From Holosporaceae bacterium (lineage in GTDB: Bacteria; Pseudomonadota; Alphaproteobacteria; UBA3830), in contig JAISCG010000153.1 in the NCBI GenBank assembly GCA_031265715.1, positions 1 through 26,320 on the forward strand: a DNA stretch of 26,320 bases, written 5' to 3'. Below the pieces are notes generated by a model. It did no database searches. It was not told where the DNA came from and saw only the letters and a list, made by a program, of their open reading frames with translations. The translations under genes and the position numbers were made by a program. This document shows, piece after piece, positions 681-24,543 of the stretch; position 1 is the first letter of the stretch; each line of letters opens with the position of its first letter.

Positions 681-1251
681 TACATTCTCCCGTTGCTTCC
701 GAAGCTTTAATCGCTTGAATTTCCCCGTTTTTCGGATCTCCGTTATCGCTGTTTTTGTCGATAAAATACGCGTCTTCCGGCGATAAAATTCCGGAGAAAT
801 TTTGATTATCATCCGTGCCTTTGCACAGCACGATCCATGTTCCCGGATGATCCGCGATGTTTGAGGACACACTGTAATATCCTCCCAGTTTGCTTGTCGG
901 ATAACCGTTAACCAATTCCATGCTGATCAAATTTGAGGCGATCAAGTGCTGCCAAAATCGTTTCGCATCTTCGACGGAAGAAATATTGCCGTTTCCGGAA
1001 CCGTTTTGCAGAGAATCGGAAATCATTTCGCGAGCTGCCGAAAAGTCTCCGGGCAGCGCTCCGTATCTGTCCGTGAATCCTTGAATTGCAATTCTGAATG
1101 TGTTCACCTGATCAATAACCGAACGCAGTTTAACCGAGTTGATCAGTTCCTTTCCCTTGAGCGCAAATCCGGCTATTAAACCGATTACCACAACCGCAAT
1201 CGCCACTTCTATGAGGGAAAACCCCCTGTTTCTTCGAAAAAAATTAATCAT
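613..1251 (-). CDS. Type IV pilin/pseudopilin-like protein with prepilin cleavage/methylation motif
   Basis: MINFFRRNRG|FSLIEVAIAVVVIGLIAGFAL is a canonical G|FxxxE motif with a basic leader. It also has a YGALPGD segment and a C-terminal Cys pair, and overlaps the secretin stop codon (ATGA). Confidence 0.92.
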   Translation of the reverse strand: MINFFRRNRGFSLIEVAIAVVVIGLIAGFALKGKELINSVKLRSVIDQVNTFRIAIQGFTDRYGALPGDFSAAREMISDSLQNGSGNGNISSVEDAKRFWQHLIASNLISMELVNGYPTSKLGGYYSVSSNIADHPGTWIVLCKGTDDNQNFSGILSPEDAYFIDKNSDNGDPKNGEIQAIKASEATGECIADSRYNTKNKNKDCVLLFKIW

Positions 1252-2858
1252 TTTTTGAATTTCAACGGCCTCGGATCATCGGCAAATTTATTGTATATCT
1301 TTTTGTCGGCCTCATGATGAAGTTTGCTTTTCTTTCTAAGAATCGTGGCTTTCAAAAAAATAACCAGCTCGGTAATGTCCGTGGATTTTTCATTGCTGCC
1401 AAGCAGAAAATCGCTTCCTTTGAATCCGGGAAGTCCGCTCCGTTGTTTGCCGGACGATTCCTGCATCAGTCCGCCCATCACGGCAACCTGTCCCGACTGC
1501 AATTTCAGAACAGAATCCAACTCTCGCACATCAACGATCGGAATTTTATGGCTATGAGGAATATTTTGTCCGACGGTATTTGTGTTAACCGTCGTTGTTT
1601 GATAAAAAAACGGCACTTCTTTGTAGCCGGAAATTCTGGAAACGGTCGGACGCAAATTCAGCAAAATCGTATTATTCTTTTTATCGACGGACGGAATAAC
1701 CGATATAATCAGTCCAATCGGAATTGTGTGAATTGTCGTCGACAAAAAATCCGTGCTGCGATTATCCGAAACGGTTGCGTATTGCCGCTGCAATTCCGGA
1801 ATATAAATGACCTCGTTTTGCGCAACTTTCAGCACCGCCGACTGATTGTTCAAAACCGTGATTCTGGGACTCGACAAAGTTTTCACGGCGCCGAATTTTT
1901 CTATTAATCCGGCAACGACGTTTAGACTTGCCCTTTCTATTCCGAATGAGAATAATCCTTCATCTACTGAAAACGGTTTTTTAAATTTTGCGCCGCCGCC
2001 GCGAATTATATTCCAATTAATTCCGTTTTTATATTCGTTTTTTAGATTTACCTCGAGAATTTTTGCTTCGATCAGAACCTGCGACTCGGAAGTATCTTTC
2101 AGCAAACGCAGATATTTTTGCACTTCCGTTTGTTTGTTCTGCGTGGTGTAAACCGTAATTAATCCGCCCTGGCGATGAATTGATAAATATGATCCGTCGT
2201 CCTCTCCGATGATCGTTTTCAGCGAAGCTTCCAACTCTGCCCAAAAATCATTTTTTGCGATTCCGGAAACCAAACTGCGCGATCCGTTATTTCCGTCCGC
2301 GGACGTCATCGGAGCATTGCCCTTTCCGATGGACTGATTCATGAAAATATCGGTCGAGACTGCAACATTGCTCTGGGTATTTCGCTGAATATTCAGGAAC
2401 TGCACGTTATAGACTTTTAACATGGGGCTGTCTGTTTCGATTTTCACGGAATTTCCGTTAATCGAATATTTTAATCCCGTTCCGCTGCAAATATCTTTCA
2501 GGATATCCAAAAACGGACGTTTTTTGGCGGAAAAAGAAACGCTGCCCTCGACGTCCTGGGTGATAAAAACGTCGATGCCGGCCAAATCTGCCATCTGGGT
2601 CAGCACTTCGCGCATTTTCATTTTTTCGGTGACAGAAATTGAAATATTTTTGTAAAAATTTTCATTGACTATCGGCTCTCCGTCGATTTCATCTTCTTCA
2701 AAATCATCAACATCAAGATCCGAAGTGAACTCCTCAACGGGGGCCGATATCGTTTCAAAAACTTTATCATCCAATTTCCTCTGCTGAGGAGTTCCGGCAG
2801 TGTCATCCAAAGAACAGCCGCTTAATACCAAAAATACCACAAAAACTACAAAATGCAT
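1248..2858 (-). CDS. Lipoprotein secretin of the T2SS/T4P family (MshL/BfpB-like)
   Basis: Lipobox LSGC at Cys15; QVLIEAKILEV, KTLSSPRITVLNNQSA and VRELDSVLKLQSGQVAVMGGLMQ secretin-domain motifs; adjacent pilin genes. Confidence 0.9.
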   Translation of the reverse strand: MHFVVFVVFLVLSGCSLDDTAGTPQQRKLDDKVFETISAPVEEFTSDLDVDDFEEDEIDGEPIVNENFYKNISISVTEKMKMREVLTQMADLAGIDVFITQDVEGSVSFSAKKRPFLDILKDICSGTGLKYSINGNSVKIETDSPMLKVYNVQFLNIQRNTQSNVAVSTDIFMNQSIGKGNAPMTSADGNNGSRSLVSGIAKNDFWAELEASLKTIIGEDDGSYLSIHRQGGLITVYTTQNKQTEVQKYLRLLKDTSESQVLIEAKILEVNLKNEYKNGINWNIIRGGGAKFKKPFSVDEGLFSFGIERASLNVVAGLIEKFGAVKTLSSPRITVLNNQSAVLKVAQNEVIYIPELQRQYATVSDNRSTDFLSTTIHTIPIGLIISVIPSVDKKNNTILLNLRPTVSRISGYKEVPFFYQTTTVNTNTVGQNIPHSHKIPIVDVRELDSVLKLQSGQVAVMGGLMQESSGKQRSGLPGFKGSDFLLGSNEKSTDITELVIFLKATILRKKSKLHHEADKKIYNKFADDPRPLKFKK

Positions 2859-5345: not shown

Positions 5346-6418
5346 CTTATTTTCAGTGTTGATAATCCGATTAAAGCGAAAACAAATGAGATGATCCAAA
5401 ATCTGATGACGACGGTGGATTCGGTCCATCCCTTTTTTTCAAAATGATGATGAATCGGGGACATCAAAAAAATTCTTTTTCCGGTGCATCTGAAATACGC
5501 CACCTGAATCATGACGGATAACGCTTCCCAGACAAACAATCCTCCGATGATCGCCAACACGAATTCGTGTTTTGTAATTACGCTCAAACCTCCGAGAGCT
5601 CCGCCGATGGCGAGAGATCCCGTATCTCCCATAAATATCATTGCCGGCGGGGCGTTATACCACAGAAATCCGAGACATGCCCCGATGAGCGCTCCGCAAA
5701 AAATGCACAATTCTCCCGCCGAAACCACGTGGATAATTTGCAGATAATTTGAAAAAATAAAATGTCCGGAAATGTAACTTATGATTCCCAAACACAGCGC
5801 CGCCAACATCGACGGAAATGTCGCGAGGCCGTCGAGTCCGTCGGTTAAATTTACGGCGTTCGAACTTCCGACGATTACAAATGTCGTGAAACAAATCAAA
5901 AATAAAGAATTATCGATTACAAAATTTTTCAAAAACGGGAATGTCAATTTTCCGACCACATCCGGCGCTCTCACCGATTCCACCAAATATGAAAAAATCA
6001 GAGCGACGAAAATTTGAATAAGCATTTTCTTTTTTCCGCGCACTCCTTTTGAATTTTTGAATTTTATTTTTAGGTAGTCATCATAAAATCCCAAAAAACA
6101 ATAAGATAGTGTTAGAAAAATCAGTAGGATTAAATAATAATTTGTAATATCTCCCCAGAGCAGCGACGAAAGTACGGTTGCGGCAATAATTATTGCTCCC
6201 CCCATCGTCGGCGTTCCCTGCTTTTGCAAAATGTGCGACTCGGGACCGTCTCCGCGAATCGGCTGGGTAAATTTCAGACGTTTTATAAAAGTCGGATAGA
6301 GAAAAAAACTTATTATCAGCGACGTAAGCAGCGCGCACATCGTTCGAAAAGTAATGTAGCGCAGCAAATTCATTCCCGAGATAAAATTCAAATAGGGAAA
6401 AAGAAAATTGTAAAACAA
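5342..6418 (-). CDS. mraY: Phospho-N-acetylmuramoyl-pentapeptide transferase
   Basis: KQGTPTMGG, GFYDDY, SNAVNLTDGLDGLA, FMGDTGSLAIG and MSPIHHHFEKKGW motifs; TTG start with GAGG upstream. Confidence 0.98.
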   Translation of the reverse strand: MFYNFLFPYLNFISGMNLLRYITFRTMCALLTSLIISFFLYPTFIKRLKFTQPIRGDGPESHILQKQGTPTMGGAIIIAATVLSSLLWGDITNYYLILLIFLTLSYCFLGFYDDYLKIKFKNSKGVRGKKKMLIQIFVALIFSYLVESVRAPDVVGKLTFPFLKNFVIDNSLFLICFTTFVIVGSSNAVNLTDGLDGLATFPSMLAALCLGIISYISGHFIFSNYLQIIHVVSAGELCIFCGALIGACLGFLWYNAPPAMIFMGDTGSLAIGGALGGLSVITKHEFVLAIIGGLFVWEALSVMIQVAYFRCTGKRIFLMSPIHHHFEKKGWTESTVVIRFWIISFVFALIGLSTLKIR

Positions 6419-6428
6419 AGCTATTGCC

Positions 6429-7715
6429 TCACAATTTTTCGGATGACGGCAACGCCGCCGGAGGGGTAATTTTTATCAGTCCGATTTGATTGCGCTGTCT
6501 TTTTAAAATTTCGATTTTAAAACCGGATAAAACGTAGGTCTGGCCGACGTCCGGAATTTTTCTGACCTCGTGCATGACATAGCCGGCGATTGTCGCAGCT
6601 TCTTCCTCGGGCAGATTCCAGTCGAACTCGCGATTAAGATCTCGAATCGGAGTCATTCCCTCCGCGATAACGGATCCGTCAGCCTGAAGTTTCACGCCGT
6701 CGGTCAGAATATCGTACTCGTCAACAATTTCTCCCACGATTTCTTCCAGAATATCCTCCAGCGTAATGCATCCCTGAAGATCGCCGTATTCGTCAACCAC
6801 AAGGGCAAAGTGCTCCCTTTTTTTCCGAAAATCCTGCAACTGATTCAACAAATGTTTGGTGTCGGGAATGAACCACGGAGCGGCCATCAACTGATTAATT
6901 CTTATTTTTTCCAGATCTCCGTTCTGCAATTGCAGCGCATGGAAGAAAGTTCTCGTTTTTAAAATTCCGATTATATTCTCCGGATTATCTTTCCACAGCG
7001 GAATTCTTGAAAAATGGCAATTGGTCAATTCCTCCGCAATTTTTGCCATCGGCAGGGATGCATTGATCGTTTTCAGATTTTTACGATGAACCATCGTGTG
7101 ACTCACGGAAATTTCTTCCAGATCAAGAATACTTTTCAACATGCTCTTTTTTTGAGCTTCCTCTTTATCATCCTCGGACGGTCGCATTTCAATGACGCCC
7201 CGCAATTCCTCGTCAGCCTGTTCCCGGGAATCCTGTTGCTCGACGTCCACGCCGATCAATTCGATGGTGTATTTTGCGCATTTTTCCAGAACCGTCGTGA
7301 CCGGTTTCAAAACAGCCACCACCCGAAAAAGAATCGGCCCCACGAAGAGCGCGAACGGAATCGTAAATTTTATCACCAGCATTTTCGGAAAAATTTCCGC
7401 ATAGATTATTATGAGAAGGGCAATAATCGTTTGTAAAACAGCAGCTTCGGTCGTGGTAAAATATTTGACCGCAAAAAGCGTGCTGAAAATCGGGATTAGA
7501 TACAACACCAGCTGATTTAAAATCAGTATGGTGCTTATTGTGGCGGATAATTTTTCCTGCAAAGCGATGACTTTTTTCGCTCTCCTATCTCCTTTTTTCG
7601 CGAGATGGTACATGTGAGCGTGAGACGCTCCGGTAACGGCCGTCTCGGCTCCGGAAATAAAACCGGCAAAAGCTATCGCAAAAAACATTCCCAAGAAAAA
7701 AAGAAGAAAAATCAT
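6429..7715 (-). CDS. HlyC/CorC (CNNM-CBS-CorC) family membrane transporter, probable Mg2+/Co2+ efflux
   Basis: N-terminal ISGAETAV and EIFPK CNNM motifs, a CBS pair (HFSRIPLW; ALVVDEYGDLQGCITLEDILEEIVGEIVDEYD), and a C-terminal CorC_HlyC-like segment (TIAGYVMHEVRKIPDVG). Confidence 0.93.
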   Translation of the reverse strand: MIFLLFFLGMFFAIAFAGFISGAETAVTGASHAHMYHLAKKGDRRAKKVIALQEKLSATISTILILNQLVLYLIPIFSTLFAVKYFTTTEAAVLQTIIALLIIIYAEIFPKMLVIKFTIPFALFVGPILFRVVAVLKPVTTVLEKCAKYTIELIGVDVEQQDSREQADEELRGVIEMRPSEDDKEEAQKKSMLKSILDLEEISVSHTMVHRKNLKTINASLPMAKIAEELTNCHFSRIPLWKDNPENIIGILKTRTFFHALQLQNGDLEKIRINQLMAAPWFIPDTKHLLNQLQDFRKKREHFALVVDEYGDLQGCITLEDILEEIVGEIVDEYDILTDGVKLQADGSVIAEGMTPIRDLNREFDWNLPEEEAATIAGYVMHEVRKIPDVGQTYVLSGFKIEILKRQRNQIGLIKITPPAALPSSEKL

Positions 7716-20891: not shown

Positions 20892-20921
20892 TTGATAACC
20901 AAATCTGACGAATGTTAATAT
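20892..20921 (+). promoter_or_regulatory. Putative sigma70 promoter of rubrerythrin
   Basis: TTGATA (20892-20897) - N18 - TAATAT (20916-20921), with an extended -10 TG at 20913-20914. Confidence 0.4.
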
Positions 20922-20952
20922 GTCTTTAGCGTGTTGTACAGAGGAAACGTTT

Positions 20953-21480
20953 ATGAAACTTGAAAACAGTAAAACAGAGAAGAATTTGAGGGAGGCCTTT
21001 GCCGGAGAGTCGATGGCGAGGAATAAGTATACCTACTTTGCTTCCCGAGCCAGAAAAGAAGGGTTCGTCCGAGTTGCAAAAGTTTTCGAAGAAACCGCCG
21101 AAAATGAGAAAGAGCACGCAAAGATTTGGTTTAAGTTGCTGAACGGTGGAAACATTTCCGATACGGCGGAAAATCTCGAGGCAGCAGCTGCCGGCGAAAA
21201 TTACGAATGGACAGATATGTACGCAAAGTTTGCGAAGGAGGCCGAAGAGGAGGGGTTTCACGACATAGCCTTTTTGTTTAAAGCAGTTGCAGGAATAGAA
21301 AAGGATCACGAAACTCGGTACAGAAATCTTCTGAGCGAAGTTTCGGATAACACAGTTTTGAAAAAAGACAAAAAAGTGGTTTGGGTCTGCGGTAAATGCG
21401 GATATGCCCACGAAGGCTTCGAGGCGCCCGAGTTGTGCCCCGTCTGCAAGCACGCAAAGATATACTTTGAGACGAGATAG
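20953..21480 (+). CDS. rbr: Rubrerythrin
   Basis: [19 protein letters not shown], di-iron motifs ENEKEH and [17 protein letters not shown], and a C-terminal rubredoxin-like CGKC...CPVC. Start refined to the ATG at 20953 (GAGGA SD). Confidence 0.96.
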
Positions 21481-21481
21481 G

Positions 21482-21500
21482 GGGCGGCGTAGAGTTGCCC
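21482..21500 (+). terminator. Possible terminator hairpin after rbr
   Basis: GGGCGGC-gtaga-GTTGCCC stem (two G-U pairs) directly after the stop codon, followed by GTCATTATTT. Confidence 0.35.
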
Positions 21501-21547
21501 GTCATTATTTATGGTGACATTGTCGCGTTGCTTCTCGCAGTGACGAG
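21499..21547 (-). repeat. REP/RPE-like element, copy 2, internally deleted
   Basis: 21519-21547 (ATTGTCGCGTTGCTTCTCGCAGTGACGAG) aligns to the reverse complement of copy 1 with 3 mismatches and one 5-nt indel. A residual CGTCATT left end is at 21500-21506. Confidence 0.6.
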
Positions 21548-21650
21548 ATGAAATACTCGGTTGAATGAGACGGGTAGCGGGGCGTTTGATTATGAAACCC
21601 GTGTGTGATATGGTTCCGCGGTAATATGGTGAAAAATCGGCAGAAACGCA

Positions 21651-22658
21651 GTGGTATCCCCGGGTAGTTCTTTTACTTTCGTTGATTTGTTTGCCGGAAT
21701 AGGGGGAATAAGGAAGGCGTTTCAAAATCTGGGGGGAAGGTGCGTTTTTTCTTCGGAAATCGACCCCTTCGCAAGAAAAACCTACTGCGCTAACTTTGAT
21801 GAAGAACCTTTCGGAGATATCACAAAAATTAATAAATGCGACATTCCGGATCACGATATTTTGGCGGCCGGTTTTCCATGCCAGGCTTTTTCCATTGCAG
21901 GTAAACGCGGAGGTTTTAACGATACCCGCGGAACATTGTTTTTTGAGGTTGCGGATATCCTGAAGGTAAAAAAAGCCAAGGCTTTTTTTTTGGAGAATGT
22001 GAAGGGACTCGCTAATCACAAACAGGGAAAAACTCTGGAGACAATATTAAATGTTCTGAGAAATGACCTGGGATACGTCGTCCCGGATCCTAAAATAATT
22101 AACGCGCGCGATTACGGCGTTCCGCAGAACAGAGAGCGCATTTTTATCGTGGGATTTCGCGGCGATCTCGGTATCAAAGCCGAAGATTTTTCCTACCCCG
22201 CAGCGGTAAATTTTAAAAAATCCCTGAAAGATATTCTTGAGGATAAACCGGTATCTTTCAAGTATTATCTTTCGTCCAAGTATCTGGAATGCCTGCAAAA
22301 ACATAAAAATCGCAACGCTGCCAAGGGAAACGGATTCGGCTATGAGATATTAGATCCCGACTCTGTGGCCAATGCTTTGGTCGTGGGAGGCATGGGTAAA
22401 GAAAGAAACCTGGTCAGAGATGAAAGGTTGGAAAATTCTGTCGCATACGAAAAAATCAACAAAGACGGCATAAGAAAAATGACTCCGAGAGAGTGGGCGA
22501 GGGTGCAGGGCTTTCCCGATAGTTTTAAAATACCGGTTTCCGATTCCCAGGCATACAAACAATTCGGTAATTCCGTCGCGGTTCCGGCGGTGCAAGCCGT
22601 GGCCGAAGTTTTGATAAAATTATTGAATGACCGTGGGCTTACTACCCGACGGATATAA
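21651..22658 (+). CDS. DNA (cytosine-5)-methyltransferase, M.HpaII-like (predicted CCGG), with no adjacent endonuclease
   Basis: C5-MTase motifs DLFAGIGG, GFPCQAFS, ENVKGL, QNRERIFIVG, MTPREWAR and YKQFGNSV. The variable region KHK...KGNGFGYEI...ANALVVGGMG.ERNLV matches the M.HpaII target-recognition domain as I recall it. GTG start, uncertain. Confidence 0.95.
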   Translation: MVSPGSSFTFVDLFAGIGGIRKAFQNLGGRCVFSSEIDPFARKTYCANFDEEPFGDITKINKCDIPDHDILAAGFPCQAFSIAGKRGGFNDTRGTLFFEVADILKVKKAKAFFLENVKGLANHKQGKTLETILNVLRNDLGYVVPDPKIINARDYGVPQNRERIFIVGFRGDLGIKAEDFSYPAAVNFKKSLKDILEDKPVSFKYYLSSKYLECLQKHKNRNAAKGNGFGYEILDPDSVANALVVGGMGKERNLVRDERLENSVAYEKINKDGIRKMTPREWARVQGFPDSFKIPVSDSQAYKQFGNSVAVPAVQAVAEVLIKLLNDRGLTTRRI

Positions 22659-22850
22659 GAAGAGGTTGACAAAACGATCGAAAATTTGTGGTCGGCGCGA
22701 ACTTATTTTTTTCATAACTTTCTAAAATCATTTTTGGGTAATTTTTTTTAAGAAGGGTTGCTTTTCGACCTATTATGACATACACAACAATTGTTACGGG
22801 GTGGGTGATTTCAAAATTTTTTTTGTACGAGTGAACAATTAGAGGGGAAA

Positions 22851-23306
22851 ATGAAAAAGAATCGGTGTATTAGCGGTTTTAAAGTGTTGTTGAATGCGGC
22901 TTTTGTTCTGTCGACAGTCGAGCAGGGTAATTCGCTGCTTCAGGCGATACGGTTAGGGGATATAGCGGAAGTCGAATCTTTGATAGATCAAGGCGCAGAT
23001 GTTAATATGTCCGACGATTTCGGGTATACTCCGTTGCATTATGCTGTTATCAAGGGACGTATAGATATAGTCAGATATTTAGTAGATCACGGCGCATTTG
23101 TTGATATGGCCAACAAGTTTGGGATGACTTCGCTGCATGATGCTATCTGTAGAGGAAATGAGAATATGGTCAAATATCTGGTGTTTTGCGGTGCGAGTGT
23201 TTATGTGGTCGATAATATCGGAAGAACTCCGTTGAGTATGGCTGTCAAATCCTGGAATGAAGTTATTGTTAATTTTCTGTTAGATAATGATGCCGTCTGG
23301 CATTAA
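22851..23306 (+). CDS. Ankyrin-repeat protein (about 4 repeats) with a signal-like N-terminus
   Basis: GADVNMSDDFGYTPLHYAV, GMTSLHDAI and GRTPLSMAV repeats; GAGGGG SD; N-terminus MKKNRCISGFKVLLNAAFVLS. Confidence 0.94.
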   Translation: MKKNRCISGFKVLLNAAFVLSTVEQGNSLLQAIRLGDIAEVESLIDQGADVNMSDDFGYTPLHYAVIKGRIDIVRYLVDHGAFVDMANKFGMTSLHDAICRGNENMVKYLVFCGASVYVVDNIGRTPLSMAVKSWNEVIVNFLLDNDAVWH

Positions 23307-23364
23307 TACCAATCCTCATTACTAAATAACCAAATAATTATTATTACACAATTGGGCAACGATA

Positions 23365-23402
23365 GGGTCTTGCAGGCCACCGGTAAAAGTCTGCAAAGAC
23401 CC
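23365..23402 (+). terminator. Hairpin downstream of the ankyrin gene
   Basis: GGGTCT-TGCAG ... CTGCA-A-AGACCC: an 11-bp stem with a one-nt bulge. Confidence 0.45.
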
Positions 23403-23633
23403 GTCCGTTTCATAAAAATTTAAATAAAGAGAGTAAATTAGAATCAGCCCTGAGGCAAATGAAAGTTGAAATTACAGATAAAAAAAAAAGATCAGACGGG
23501 TGGTAAGGTCCTGTCGCTTATCGCTTTTTCTATCGCCTCAGGATTTTCTTTCGTGTACATTATACTTCTCTCAGATGCCCATATTCACGATTTAAAAAAT
23601 TCTTTTTATTTTTTTTAAAACATGTTTTTGTTT

Positions 23634-23662
23634 TTGATATCGAATGCAAAAAATGCTATATT
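23634..23662 (+). promoter_or_regulatory. Putative sigma70 promoter of the Panacea TA operon
   Basis: TTGATA (23634-23639) - N17 - TATATT (23657-23662), ending 19 nt upstream of the ATG at 23682. Confidence 0.55.
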
Positions 23663-23681
23663 CGAACTCGGGAGATTGGTT

Positions 23682-24137
23682 ATGAGTGAAGTTTACACAG
23701 CTGTCGACATAGCGAAATATATCATTTTAACAGCCCATGAAAATGGAGATGTTATAACTAATTTGAAGTTGCAAAAGCTTCTCTATTATGCGCAAGCGTG
23801 GTATATGGTTCATCATGGAGGAAAAAAGCTGTTCTCTGACAATATAGAGGCTTGGAAATTCGGGCCGGTAGTAAAGGATGTTTACGACCTTTATAAAAAA
23901 TTTTCGAGAAATCCCATTGATGAACAGGTCGACGAAGGAGATTTCGCTCGCCTGAATCCGGAAGACAGAAAATTCATGGATGAATTTCTTGGTGAGTTTA
24001 TGGATCATTCTGCTTTATCATTAGTAAATATGATTCACAATGAACCGCCGTGGAAGGAAGCCTTTGATGAAGAGGATCCCTTTTGTTCAAGCATAATTTC
24101 TACGGATTCTATGTACAATTATTATTCGAAACTCTAG
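23682..24137 (+). CDS. Panacea-domain (DUF4065/GepA/SocA-like) antitoxin
   Basis: YTAVDIAKYII...ITNLKLQKLLYYAQAW...LFSDNIEAWKFGPVVKDVY...HNEPPWK. Start refined to the ATG at 23682 (GGAGA SD). Confidence 0.93.
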   Translation: MSEVYTAVDIAKYIILTAHENGDVITNLKLQKLLYYAQAWYMVHHGGKKLFSDNIEAWKFGPVVKDVYDLYKKFSRNPIDEQVDEGDFARLNPEDRKFMDEFLGEFMDHSALSLVNMIHNEPPWKEAFDEEDPFCSSIISTDSMYNYYSKL

Positions 24138-24141
24138 AGCA

Positions 24142-24543
24142 ATGATTTTTCACAAGACGAAACATAAAGAAGGTAAGTTTAAATGTACTCCTGTTGCATA
24201 CGAAAAGATAAAACCTATTTTTTCTTTTAAAGATTTTCACAAAGACACCGAATATTACAATAAAGAAGATTCAAACAGCGACAGAAACAGCCTGTTGAAT
24301 TTTCTGAATGCTGCCAAAGATTTTTGTAATCTCACCTGGGAAGAAATAAAGAAAAACAAACAATTTCACGCACATACCGTAGATAAAACTATTCCCGGTT
24401 TTAATCTTCCGGAAGATTTAGTTTTGTTTCAATTTAAATTGCCTAATCACGACAAAGGTAGATTTGTGGGATACTTTGATAATAATTGCGTGTTTCATAT
24501 ATTGATATATGATCGCAATCATCAAATTTACTCGAGCAAATAG
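24142..24543 (+). CDS. Hypothetical protein; putative toxin partner of the Panacea antitoxin
   Basis: 133-aa ORF starting 4 nt after the antitoxin stop, with PIFSFK, LTWEEI...HAH and GRFVGY...FHILIYDRNHQIY segments. The toxin role is inferred from position only. Confidence 0.75.
   Translation: MIFHKTKHKEGKFKCTPVAYEKIKPIFSFKDFHKDTEYYNKEDSNSDRNSLLNFLNAAKDFCNLTWEEIKKNKQFHAHTVDKTIPGFNLPEDLVLFQFKLPNHDKGRFVGYFDNNCVFHILIYDRNHQIYSSK

What the first reader, a model, noticed from the sequence alone, without database searches (positions are those of the whole stretch)
21651..22658. Orphan M.HpaII-like methyltransferase in a genome where CCGG is abundant, not depleted
Seen: the flanking gaps (170 and 192 nt) leave no room for an endonuclease or vsr. 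By hand I count about 18 CCGG, about 4 GGCC and about 13 CGCG in bases 1-2880, and 8 CCGG in the MTase gene itself. Established: M.HpaII makes C(m5C)GG, i.e. a methylated CpG; restriction sites and m5C sites tend to become depleted over time. Inference: either a recent acquisition protecting against CCGG-cutting nucleases, or a domesticated epigenetic mark that also mimics eukaryotic CpG methylation in an intracellular bacterium. General CpG richness may explain much of the excess.
Basis: partly seen in the sequence, partly recalled or inferred. Interest (0 to 1): 0.65.

Follow-up and report, generated by a model that had tools for sequence, protein, structure and literature searches.

The report
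Solitary HpaII-type cytosine methylase gene
This is an intact DNA cytosine methylase of the HpaII (CCGG) type that has no restriction enzyme or Vsr repair partner, sits in a small intracellular Holosporaceae genome, and is an ordinary "orphan" methylase whose site is common only because the genome is rich in CCG/CGG.

Summary
Its target-recognition domain and tree position place it with methylases that sit beside HpaII-family endonucleases, so CCGG is the likely target.

It is solitary. No HpaII or MspI endonuclease and no Vsr was found in the 1.26-Mb assembly, which is 83% complete.

CCGG is abundant: O/E is 2.60 by base composition and 1.74 by dinucleotides. The excess lies in CpG and in CCG/CGG triplets, not in the tetramer.

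Relatives with an adjacent HpaII endonuclease and no adjacent Vsr have depleted CCGG (median O/E 0.44). Non-depletion is therefore what a long-standing orphan should show.

"Recent acquisition" is not favoured. The gene's composition matches host core genes, two intact variants at 91-92% identity exist, and one congener carries a decayed copy. Eleven congeners lack an intact orthologue.

Host CpG mimicry has no support. One caveat: this lineage has a 4-residue deletion in a conserved recognition loop.

The scan has met HpaII-type cassettes often on other DNA, including another orphan survivor. This is a new member of a known kind.

The parts
21651..22658 (+). Complete C5 DNA cytosine methyltransferase gene (335 aa, GTG start), HpaII-type
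   Evidence: PF00145 E 7.7e-103 over residues 8-322. TIGR00675 E 4e-100. The catalytic domain aligns to M.HhaI with PCQ, ENV and QxRxR intact. It is the only PF00145 match in the genome.
21690..21707 (+). Motif I, FAGIGG (residues 14-19), the AdoMet-binding loop
   Evidence: Invariant in alignments A1 and A2 and aligned to the same motif in M.HhaI.
21870..21893 (+). Motif IV, GFPCQAFS (residues 74-81), with catalytic Cys77
   Evidence: Identical to the M.HhaI motif and invariant in all 16 aligned homologues.
21993..22001 (+). Motif VI, ENV (residues 115-117)
   Evidence: Invariant.
22125..22139 (+). Motif VIII, QNRER (residues 159-163)
   Evidence: Q159, N160, R161 and R163 are invariant and E162 is nearly invariant.
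22239..22469 (+). Target-recognition domain (residues 197-273), HpaII type, with the KGNGFGY and GGMGxERNL elements
   Evidence: It is 49-65% identical to methylases linked to RE_HpaII, at most 27% to most others, with two intermediate loci at 43%. It keeps 36 of the 40 positions that are at least 90% conserved in 27 REase-linked members. GGMGxERNL is absent from the Dcm and CCNGG/CCSGG-type methylases aligned alongside.
22434..22457 (+). Lineage-specific divergent recognition loop (residues 262-269), 4 residues shorter than in all other clade members
   Evidence: The 13 aligned relatives outside this lineage have F-T-P-x-T-x-I-x-G-E here. P0001, P0299 and P0300 have a shortened ...YEKI... segment instead.
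22470..22586 (+). Motifs IX-X (RKMTPREWARVQGFPD ... QFGNSVAVP)
   Evidence: Aligned to M.HhaI residues 271-318 and conserved in A2.
21481..21650 (.). Upstream 170-nt spacer with a terminator-like hairpin just after the rubrerythrin gene; no ORF
   Evidence: Hairpin at 21482-21500 followed by a T-rich tail. There is no REase or Vsr similarity. Similarity to the nearest congener G008 ends near the 3' end of rbr, at about 21452.
22659..22850 (.). Downstream 192-nt AT-rich spacer (GC 0.34); no remnant of an endonuclease gene
   Evidence: Composition. tblastn with a panel of 10 HpaII-family REases found nothing in the window or genome better than E 0.066.
22851..24543 (+). Neighbouring accessory genes, not part of the methylase function: a 151-aa ankyrin protein, a Panacea/SocA-type antitoxin and a 133-aa partner of low GC
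   Evidence: Pfam and NCBIfam matches. panA GC is 0.37 and the 133-aa ORF GC is 0.31, both below the 5th percentile of host ORFs.

Best explanation
The gene encodes a solitary (orphan) type II 5-methylcytosine DNA methyltransferase of the M.HpaII lineage. It most likely methylates CCGG. By analogy with M.HpaII the target would be the inner cytosine; this is inferred, not shown. The gene entered an ancestor of this Holosporaceae species cluster by horizontal transfer, either as part of an HpaII-type (vsr-)M-R cassette or as a lone M gene. The endonuclease, and any Vsr, are absent now. The methylase has been resident long enough to take on the host's base and codon composition, and it has stayed intact in at least three diverged lineages. 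Because no cognate endonuclease has acted on this genome, CCGG was never selected against. Its high count follows from the genome's general CpG and CCG/CGG richness, for example Pro CCG at 57% of proline codons. Its present role is unknown. The most likely options are a neutral or weakly selected self-methylation mark, or protection against incoming CCGG-cutting restriction systems.
For: Family and integrity: PF00145 matches full length. Motifs I, IV (Cys77), VI, VIII and X are intact.

HpaII type: the Acinetobacter plasmid homologue (65% identity) is followed directly by an annotated HpaII-family REase. Among relatives of at least 60% identity, 28 of 37 evaluable loci carry an HpaII-family REase next door. 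Only 1 of 47 more distant loci does. Pfam confirms one such REase as RE_HpaII at E 6e-141. Recognition-domain identity is 49-65% to these relatives and at most 27% to most others. P0001 keeps 36 of 40 conserved recognition positions. The tree nests P0001 in the REase-linked clade with support 0.92-0.93. Methylases of the ~50% clade pair with MvaI/BcnI or EcoRII-C-like nucleases instead.

Orphan status: there is no PF09561, PF09208 or PF03852 match in the genome. tblastn and HMM panels found nothing. The single weak DUF559 hit is the start of truA.

No restriction footprint: CCGG O/E is 0.985 at second order. CCGG/CTGG is 2.73, against 0.21 in pooled REase-bearing loci without adjacent Vsr.

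Long residence: GC, GC3, CpG O/E, CCGG density and codon fit all lie between the 35th and 77th percentiles of 734 host ORFs. Most homologues have GC 0.30-0.38, CpG O/E below 1 and 0-2 CCGG. Two intact variants at 91-92% identity exist. A frameshifted HpaII-type copy sits in congener G002.

Physical linkage: the gene lies on a 26-kb contig with lon, clpX, topA and tlc, which are 75-86% identical to congeners. It is therefore not a binning artefact.
Against: The methylated motif was not measured. This lineage has a 4-residue deletion and divergence in a recognition loop that all other clade members conserve. It also lacks the roughly 30-aa N-terminal extension found in the full-length relatives aligned. 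Specificity or activity could therefore differ. The assembly is only 83% complete and is split into 168 contigs, so an unlinked REase or Vsr could be missing. The gene was not found intact in 11 congeners. It borders low-GC accessory genes, which on its own would suggest mobility. Without Vsr, methylated CCGG should decay to CTGG/CCAG. No such decay is seen, which could mean low activity rather than long-term methylation.
Confidence: 0.8

Rival explanations
1. Recent horizontal acquisition: the methylase arrived lately with the adjacent accessory genes and has not yet had time to affect CCGG frequency.
For: There is no intact orthologue in the 11 other species of the genus or in about 30 further genomes of the family and order. 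The best outside hits are only 70-74% identical and come from unrelated gut and environmental bacteria. lon-clpX-rbr synteny with the nearest congener G008 ends near the 3' end of rbr. The neighbouring TA genes have foreign-looking GC.
Against: The gene's GC, GC3, CpG O/E (1.37), CCGG density and codon usage are typical of host core genes and unlike most homologues. Three intact variants have diverged by 8-9% in protein sequence. Congener G002 holds a heavily decayed HpaII-type copy, which implies an old presence in the genus. No flanking repeats or tRNA mark a fresh insertion.
Confidence: 0.15
2. Complete but unlinked restriction-modification system: the cognate endonuclease, Vsr, or both lie in the unassembled 17% of the genome.
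For: Completeness is 83% over 168 contigs. In Caulobacter the Vsr-like partner of a solitary m5C methylase is not genetically linked to the methylase gene (PMC12907096).
Against: In 28 of 37 relatives the REase is immediately adjacent. Genomes that do carry it show strong CCGG avoidance (median first-order O/E 0.44; CCGG/CTGG about 0.2). This genome shows none. Pfam, tblastn and custom-HMM searches were all negative.
Confidence: 0.08
3. Decaying or functionally altered gene: after loss of the endonuclease the methylase is drifting, with weakened activity or changed specificity.
For: There is a lineage-specific 4-residue deletion and divergence in a recognition loop conserved in 27 REase-linked relatives. 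The N-terminal extension is also lost. A congener's copy is already a pseudogene. No deamination footprint is seen at CCGG despite the absence of Vsr.
Against: All catalytic motifs are intact, and 160 of 173 highly conserved positions are kept. The shortened loop (YEKIN) is itself conserved among three variants that differ at 8-9% of other positions. The reading frame is open in all three.
Confidence: 0.15
4. Host-directed or host-mimicking methylation: the enzyme makes a CpG mark that imitates eukaryotic methylation, or is exported to act on host DNA.
For: The organism is very probably intracellular. It has a TLC ATP/ADP translocase (E 6.8e-163), a small genome, and named ClpX relatives that are mostly 'Holosporaceae bacterium' MAGs at 81-90% identity. 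The three variants share a short basic C-terminal tail that the other clade members lack.
Against: There is no N-terminal signal sequence; motif I begins at residue 14. No VirB4 type IV secretion ATPase was found. Nothing distinguishes the enzyme from ordinary bacterial self-methylases. A bacterial chromosome inside a host cell gains no known benefit from CpG methylation.
Confidence: 0.03

Closest known systems
M.HpaII / HpaII restriction-modification system (CCGG; often arranged vsr-M-R)
   Same: The catalytic core and recognition-domain type are the same (KGNGFGY ... GGMGxERNL). It is nested in the clade whose members are followed by RE_HpaII endonucleases.
   Different: There is no endonuclease and no Vsr. 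A 4-residue deletion sits in a conserved recognition loop. The N-terminal ~30-aa extension is missing. The host genome shows no CCGG avoidance.
E. coli Dcm with Vsr (CCWGG, solitary m5C methylase plus very-short-patch repair)
   Same: It is a solitary chromosomal C5 methylase that acts on the second C of a CC..GG site. The first half of the recognition domain is shared.
   Different: Dcm overlaps its vsr gene, whereas no Vsr was found here. The second half of the recognition domain differs.
Caulobacter crescentus ScmA (solitary m5C methylase of an alphaproteobacterium, YGCCGGCR) with unlinked VsrA (PMC12907096)
   Same: It is a solitary cytosine methylase in an alphaproteobacterium with no obvious regulatory role, and its site contains CCGG.
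   Different: ScmA methylates the first C of a longer motif, and a Vsr-like gene stabilises it. No Vsr-like gene was detected here.
Neisseria gonorrhoeae M.NgoA1175P / V.NgoAXIV (CCGG-context Vsr beside a truncated methylase; PMC6116569)
   Same: It is a remnant of a CCGG-type methylase module that has lost its partners.
   Different: There the Vsr survives and the methylase is truncated. Here the methylase survives and Vsr is absent.

Membership tests
C5 DNA cytosine methyltransferase (Pfam PF00145 / TIGR00675) | Full-length profile match above the curated cut-off | tested here: met
   PF00145 scores 344.8 bits (cut-off 22) over profile positions 1-323 of 324. TIGR00675 scores 335.7 bits (cut-off 100.65).
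C5 DNA cytosine methyltransferase (Pfam PF00145 / TIGR00675) | Catalytic motifs I (FxGxG), IV (PCQ with Cys), VI (ENV), VIII (QxRxR) and X (GNS) | tested here: met
   FAGIGG 14-19, GFPCQ 74-78, ENV 115-117, QNRER 159-163 and GNSV 306-309 all align to M.HhaI and are conserved among homologues.
M.HpaII-type methylase (CCGG) | Recognition domain homologous to that of methylases partnered with RE_HpaII endonucleases | tested here: met
   Identity over residues 197-273 is 49-65% to REase-linked members, at most 27% to most others and 43% to two intermediate loci. P0001 keeps 36 of 40 highly conserved positions.
M.HpaII-type methylase (CCGG) | Phylogenetic placement inside the RE_HpaII-linked clade | tested here: met
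   In the FastTree LG+gamma tree, the clade containing P0001 and all adjacent-REase members has support 0.92-0.93.
M.HpaII-type methylase (CCGG) | Conserved distal recognition loop (F-T-P-x-T-x-I-x-G-E) present in all REase-linked members | tested here: not met
   P0001, P0299 and P0300 have a divergent segment that is 4 residues shorter.
M.HpaII-type methylase (CCGG) | Methylation of the inner cytosine of CCGG | not testable with these tools
   No methylation data are available. This needs bisulfite or nanopore calling, or an HpaII versus MspI digest.
HpaII restriction-modification system (M + R, often + Vsr) | RE_HpaII-family endonuclease adjacent or elsewhere in the genome | tested here: not met
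   PF09561 has no match at E up to 1. A tblastn panel gives nothing better than E 0.066. The flanking gaps are 170 and 192 nt. The genome is 83% complete.
HpaII restriction-modification system (M + R, often + Vsr) | Vsr mismatch endonuclease | tested here: not met
   PF03852 has no match. tblastn and a custom HMM that included a congener's Vsr were negative. The PF04480 hit is noise at the start of truA.
HpaII restriction-modification system (M + R, often + Vsr) | Avoidance of CCGG in the host genome | tested here: not met
   O/E is 2.60, 1.74 and 0.985. REase-bearing relatives have a median first-order O/E of 0.44.
Solitary (orphan) DNA methyltransferase | No cognate endonuclease gene at the locus or in the genome | tested here: met
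   within the limit of 83% completeness.
Solitary (orphan) DNA methyltransferase | Retention in related lineages, as a sign of selection rather than transient carriage | tested here: inconclusive
   Two intact variants exist at 91-92% identity. However, the gene was not found intact in 11 congeners, and one congener has a pseudogene. DNA of the variants could not be fetched, so dN/dS was not computed.

The most novel reading that the evidence does not exclude
The CpG and CCG/CGG excess may be a mutational footprint of T:G-to-C:G very-short-patch-type repair that once accompanied the HpaII-type methylase. CGG/TGG ratios are 1.6-2.7 here, against about 0.5-1.1 in most congeners. In the genus sample, the only genomes with a first-order CCG O/E of about 1.3 are this one and G002, the congener that holds the decayed HpaII-type methylase. 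On this reading a methylase-linked repair system, now lost or unassembled, reshaped the base composition of an obligate endosymbiont. Congener G004 carries a methylase plus Vsr and has GCGN/GTGN ratios of about 7, which would be a second instance.
Probability: 0.12. Interest if true: 0.6.

Novelty: new member of a known kind. Interest (0 to 1): 0.28.

Why it matters
Solitary cytosine methylases are common, and their roles are mostly unknown (PMC12907096). This one adds a clean example in a reduced Holosporaceae endosymbiont genome, where retaining a non-essential gene is itself mildly informative. The comparison across relatives gives a practical rule. An adjacent HpaII endonuclease without adjacent Vsr goes with CCGG depletion. 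An adjacent Vsr goes with CCGG excess. An orphan without either partner shows no tetramer-level signal. Site abundance can therefore be used to date the loss of restriction pressure. None of this changes current understanding.

Tried and rejected
The genomic context of the closest (70-74%) metagenomic homologues and the DNA of variants P0299 and P0300 could therefore not be obtained, and no dN/dS was computed.

The metagenome scan found nothing closer than 68% identity. The listing of cluster members gave no organism names for the sister group.

Synteny around rubrerythrin is not conserved in eight congeners. Only G008 keeps lon-clpX-rbr, and its contig ends 268 nt past rbr.

The weak DUF559 hit on contig C42 lies at the valS-truA junction and is noise.

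I tested whether Vsr elsewhere in the genomes of orphan-methylase relatives predicts CCGG excess. The result was mixed: Vsr is present in L030 (O/E 1.99) but also in L042 (0.64) and L037 (0.41). Only an adjacent Vsr is informative.

A canonical CCGG-specific very-short-patch footprint is not favoured for this genome. The 5'-C and 3'-G context effects simply multiply, and P(G|CCG) is 0.290 against 0.282-0.303 for the other NCG triplets. True orphan-plus-Vsr genomes show strong tetramer synergy, with CCGG/CTGG of 16.4 in L044.

A DISARM DrmMII assignment (PADLOC E 2.9e-97, weaker than the MTase_II hit at 1.4e-120) was rejected because no other DISARM genes were seen among the neighbouring genes.

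No structure was predicted, because it could not settle specificity.

Full report
**What is there.** The window is contig C89 of a 1.257-Mb, 168-contig assembly that is 83% complete. ORF 21651-22658 (+) starts with GTG and encodes 335 aa. It matches the C5 cytosine methylase family end to end: PF00145 at E 7.7e-103 and TIGR00675 at E 4e-100. Its catalytic half aligns to M.HhaI with FAGIGG, GFPCQAFS (Cys77), ENV and QNRER, and later GNSV, all intact. The stretch between residues 197 and 273 does not align to M.HhaI and is the target-recognition domain. It is the only PF00145 gene in the assembly.

The flanking gaps are 170 nt (after rubrerythrin, 20920-21480) and 192 nt (before a 151-aa ankyrin gene). 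Antisense ORFs inside the gene have no family match.

**Which organism.** Most named ClpX relatives at 81-90% identity are labelled 'MAG: Holosporaceae bacterium'. The window carries a TLC ATP/ADP translocase (E 6.8e-163). The other species of the genus have genomes of 0.7-1.4 Mb. An intracellular alphaproteobacterium is therefore a sound reading. An earlier scan note places it in termite guts; I did not test that. The methylase is physically linked to lon, clpX and topA, which are 75-86% identical to congeners. It is not a binning artefact.

**Is it HpaII-like?** A 65%-identical methylase on an Acinetobacter plasmid is followed at once by an annotated 'HpaII family restriction endonuclease'. 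I examined 80 loci from species-representative genomes.
- Among relatives at least 60% identical to P0001, 28 of 37 evaluable loci have an HpaII-family endonuclease next to the methylase.
- Only 1 of 47 more distant loci does.
- One such endonuclease was confirmed as RE_HpaII at E 6e-141.

Identity over the recognition domain is bimodal. It is 49-65% to the endonuclease-linked group, at most 27% to most of the rest, and 43% to two intermediate loci. P0001 keeps 36 of the 40 recognition-domain positions that are at least 90% conserved in 27 endonuclease-linked members, and 160 of 173 overall. A tree nests P0001 inside that clade with support 0.92-0.93. Its sister (support 0.94) is a group of metagenomic proteins that includes a Helicobacter sp., a 'Candidatus Scatousia' and a Vsr-methylase fusion.

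Methylases of the ~50% clade are instead followed by MvaI/BcnI or EcoRII-C-like nucleases, which points to CCNGG/CCSGG-type systems. An alignment with E. coli Dcm shows that KGNGFGY is shared by all these CC..GG enzymes. GGMGxERNL is specific to the HpaII type, and P0001 has it.

One caveat applies. P0001 and its two close variants have a 4-residue deletion and divergence in a distal recognition loop (F-T-P-x-T-x-I-x-G-E in the relatives). They also lack the roughly 30-aa N-terminal extension seen in the full-length relatives aligned. I put CCGG specificity at about 70%. Methylation of the inner cytosine is an inference from M.HpaII.

**Is it an orphan?** There is no match to RE_HpaII, Endonuc-MspI or Vsr in the assembly at E up to 1. 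tblastn with ten HpaII-family endonucleases gave nothing better than E 0.066. tblastn with five Vsr sequences, including a congener's, gave nothing better than E 0.086, and a custom Vsr HMM gave nothing better than E 0.18. A 13.6-bit DUF559 hit is the start of truA. The limit on this conclusion is the 83% completeness.

**CCGG abundance.** The genome has 7165 CCGG sites. O/E is 2.60 by base composition, 1.74 by dinucleotides and 0.985 by the maximal-order (second-order) Markov model.
- CpG O/E is 1.43.
- CCG/CGG are enriched (first-order O/E 1.33) and CCA/TGG are depleted (0.81).
- P(G|CCG) is 0.290, against 0.303, 0.282 and 0.301 after ACG, GCG and TCG, so nothing is specific to the tetramer.
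- Proline is encoded by CCG 57% of the time.
- Shuffling synonymous codons within genes leaves CCGG at 1.39 times expectation. This reflects C|G codon junctions, because most CCGG sites are in the xCC|GGx or CCG|G phases.

General CpG richness explains part of the excess, CCG/CGG triplets explain the rest, and the site itself carries no signal. Nine of the eleven congeners sampled also have first-order CCGG O/E above 1 (0.96-1.53), so a mild excess is a trait of the genus.

**What non-depletion means.** Across the relatives' loci, methylases with an adjacent HpaII endonuclease and no adjacent Vsr sit in DNA with a median first-order CCGG O/E of 0.44. Their pooled CCGG/CTGG ratio is 0.21. Loci with an adjacent Vsr have a median O/E of 1.38. 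One orphan-plus-Vsr locus (L044) reaches O/E 2.76 with CCGG/CTGG of 16.4. This genome, at CCGG/CTGG of 2.73 and with no tetramer synergy, carries neither the restriction-avoidance footprint nor the strong Vsr footprint. That fits a lineage that has not been exposed to a cognate endonuclease for a long time.

**Recent or old?** Eleven congeners and about 30 further genomes of the family and order have no intact orthologue. Synteny with the nearest congener G008 (Lon 84%, TopA 86%) ends near the 3' end of rbr. These points alone would suggest mobility.

Against a recent arrival, the gene's composition is host-like. Its GC (0.447), GC3, CpG O/E (1.37), CCGG density (7.9 per kb) and codon fit fall between the 35th and 77th percentiles of 734 long host ORFs. 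Most homologues have GC 0.30-0.38, CpG O/E below 1 and 0-2 CCGG. Two further intact variants (333 and 330 aa, 91-92% identical) exist in JGI metagenomes, with all motifs conserved. Congener G002, which is not the closest relative (Lon 79%, TopA 75%), carries a frameshifted, stop-riddled copy that still shows the HpaII-type KY.LS...GFGYEI element. That copy lies in a different neighbourhood. No repeats or tRNA flank the gene. I favour long residence at about 65%.

**Function.** Shown: an intact, conserved catalytic apparatus and an HpaII-type recognition domain. Inferred: CCGG methylation of the bacterium's own chromosome. The present benefit is unknown. It could be immunity against incoming CCGG-cutting systems, a regulatory mark, or nothing.

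The host-mimicry idea has no support. There is no signal peptide and no VirB4. Only a short basic C-terminal tail is peculiar to the three variants.

One puzzle remains. With no Vsr, methylated CCGG should decay to CTGG/CCAG, yet none is seen. The enzyme may be weakly active, another repair route may act, or a Vsr existed until recently.

**Speculative reading.** In the genus sample, only this genome and G002 have first-order CCG O/E of about 1.3 (the others are 1.01-1.16), and both have raised NCGG/NTGG ratios. G004, which has a different methylase next to a Vsr, shows GCGN/GTGN of about 7 and CpG O/E of 1.79. Vsr-type biased repair may therefore have shaped CpG content in this genus. The lack of tetramer synergy and the absence of Vsr in both genomes argue against it here. 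I give it about 12%.

**Comparison and verdict.** This is a solitary HpaII-family m5C methylase, a new member of a known kind. Solitary cytosine methylases, some in genomes with no vsr-like gene, are well documented (PMC12907096). CCGG-context Vsr modules with truncated methylases are known in Neisseria (PMC6116569). The scan has recorded HpaII-type vsr-M-R cassettes on other DNA several times, including one where only the methylase survives. Interest is low to moderate.

Noticed in passing
L007 (G004:C77:3409-7302), ORFs 1462-2433(-) and 1007-1594(-): Congener G004 carries a different C5 methylase (43% identity to P0001, unrelated recognition domain) overlapping a Vsr gene (PF03852, E 2.9e-18). 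In a 74-kb sample, CpG O/E is 1.79, GCGN/GTGN is about 7 in all four contexts, and GCGC itself is depleted (second-order O/E 0.55). This looks like a Vsr-type footprint plus site avoidance.
   Followed up: partly
L010 (G002:C35:4449-7679), about 1140-1900, minus strand: Congener G002 has a frameshifted, stop-containing remnant of an HpaII-type methylase between an AAA_2 ATPase gene and folK-folP. G002 shares this genome's CCG/CGG enrichment (first-order O/E 1.31) although it is not its closest relative.
   Followed up: partly
whole genome G000 and congener samples L104-L111, L192-L231: CpG O/E ranges from 0.96 to 1.79 among species of one genus of about 1-Mb endosymbionts. The highest values were in G004 (methylase plus Vsr), G005 (68% complete, no methylase found), G002 (methylase remnant) and this genome.
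   Followed up: partly
whole genome G000: CTAG is extremely rare: 277 sites, O/E 0.058 by composition and 0.36 by second-order Markov. GGCC is under-represented (O/E 0.75). Neither was pursued.
   Followed up: no
L044 (JAQIDA010000040.1, Candidatus Kapaibacterium MAG): This locus has an orphan HpaII-clade methylase with an upstream Vsr and no endonuclease. Its CCGG/CTGG ratio is 16.4 and first-order CCGG O/E is 2.76, a very strong very-short-patch-type signature in 8 kb.
   Followed up: partly
L066, L074 (5950-7257) and L054, L061, L064 (about 5920-6950): Methylases about 50% identical to P0001, with a different recognition domain, are followed by MvaI/BcnI-family (E 3e-47 to 4e-48) or weakly EcoRII-C-like nucleases. 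The recognition-domain split therefore tracks the partner nuclease family.
   Followed up: partly
window 22632-22658 (C-terminal codons of the methylase): The three Holosporaceae variants end in short basic tails (…DRGLTTRRI, …DHGRRRR, …DRGK) that are absent from other clade members. Their significance is unknown.
   Followed up: no
window 23622-24543: A Panacea/SocA-type antitoxin gene is followed after 4 nt by a 133-aa ORF with no family match. Both have GC (0.37 and 0.31) below the 5th percentile of host ORFs, so this pair looks much more recently acquired than the methylase.
   Followed up: partly
G000:C109:750-1385 (L235): The assembly holds one N6_N4-type DNA methylase (PF01555, E 9.5e-31), possibly CcrM-like. 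No Dam-type (PF02086) methylase was found.
   Followed up: no
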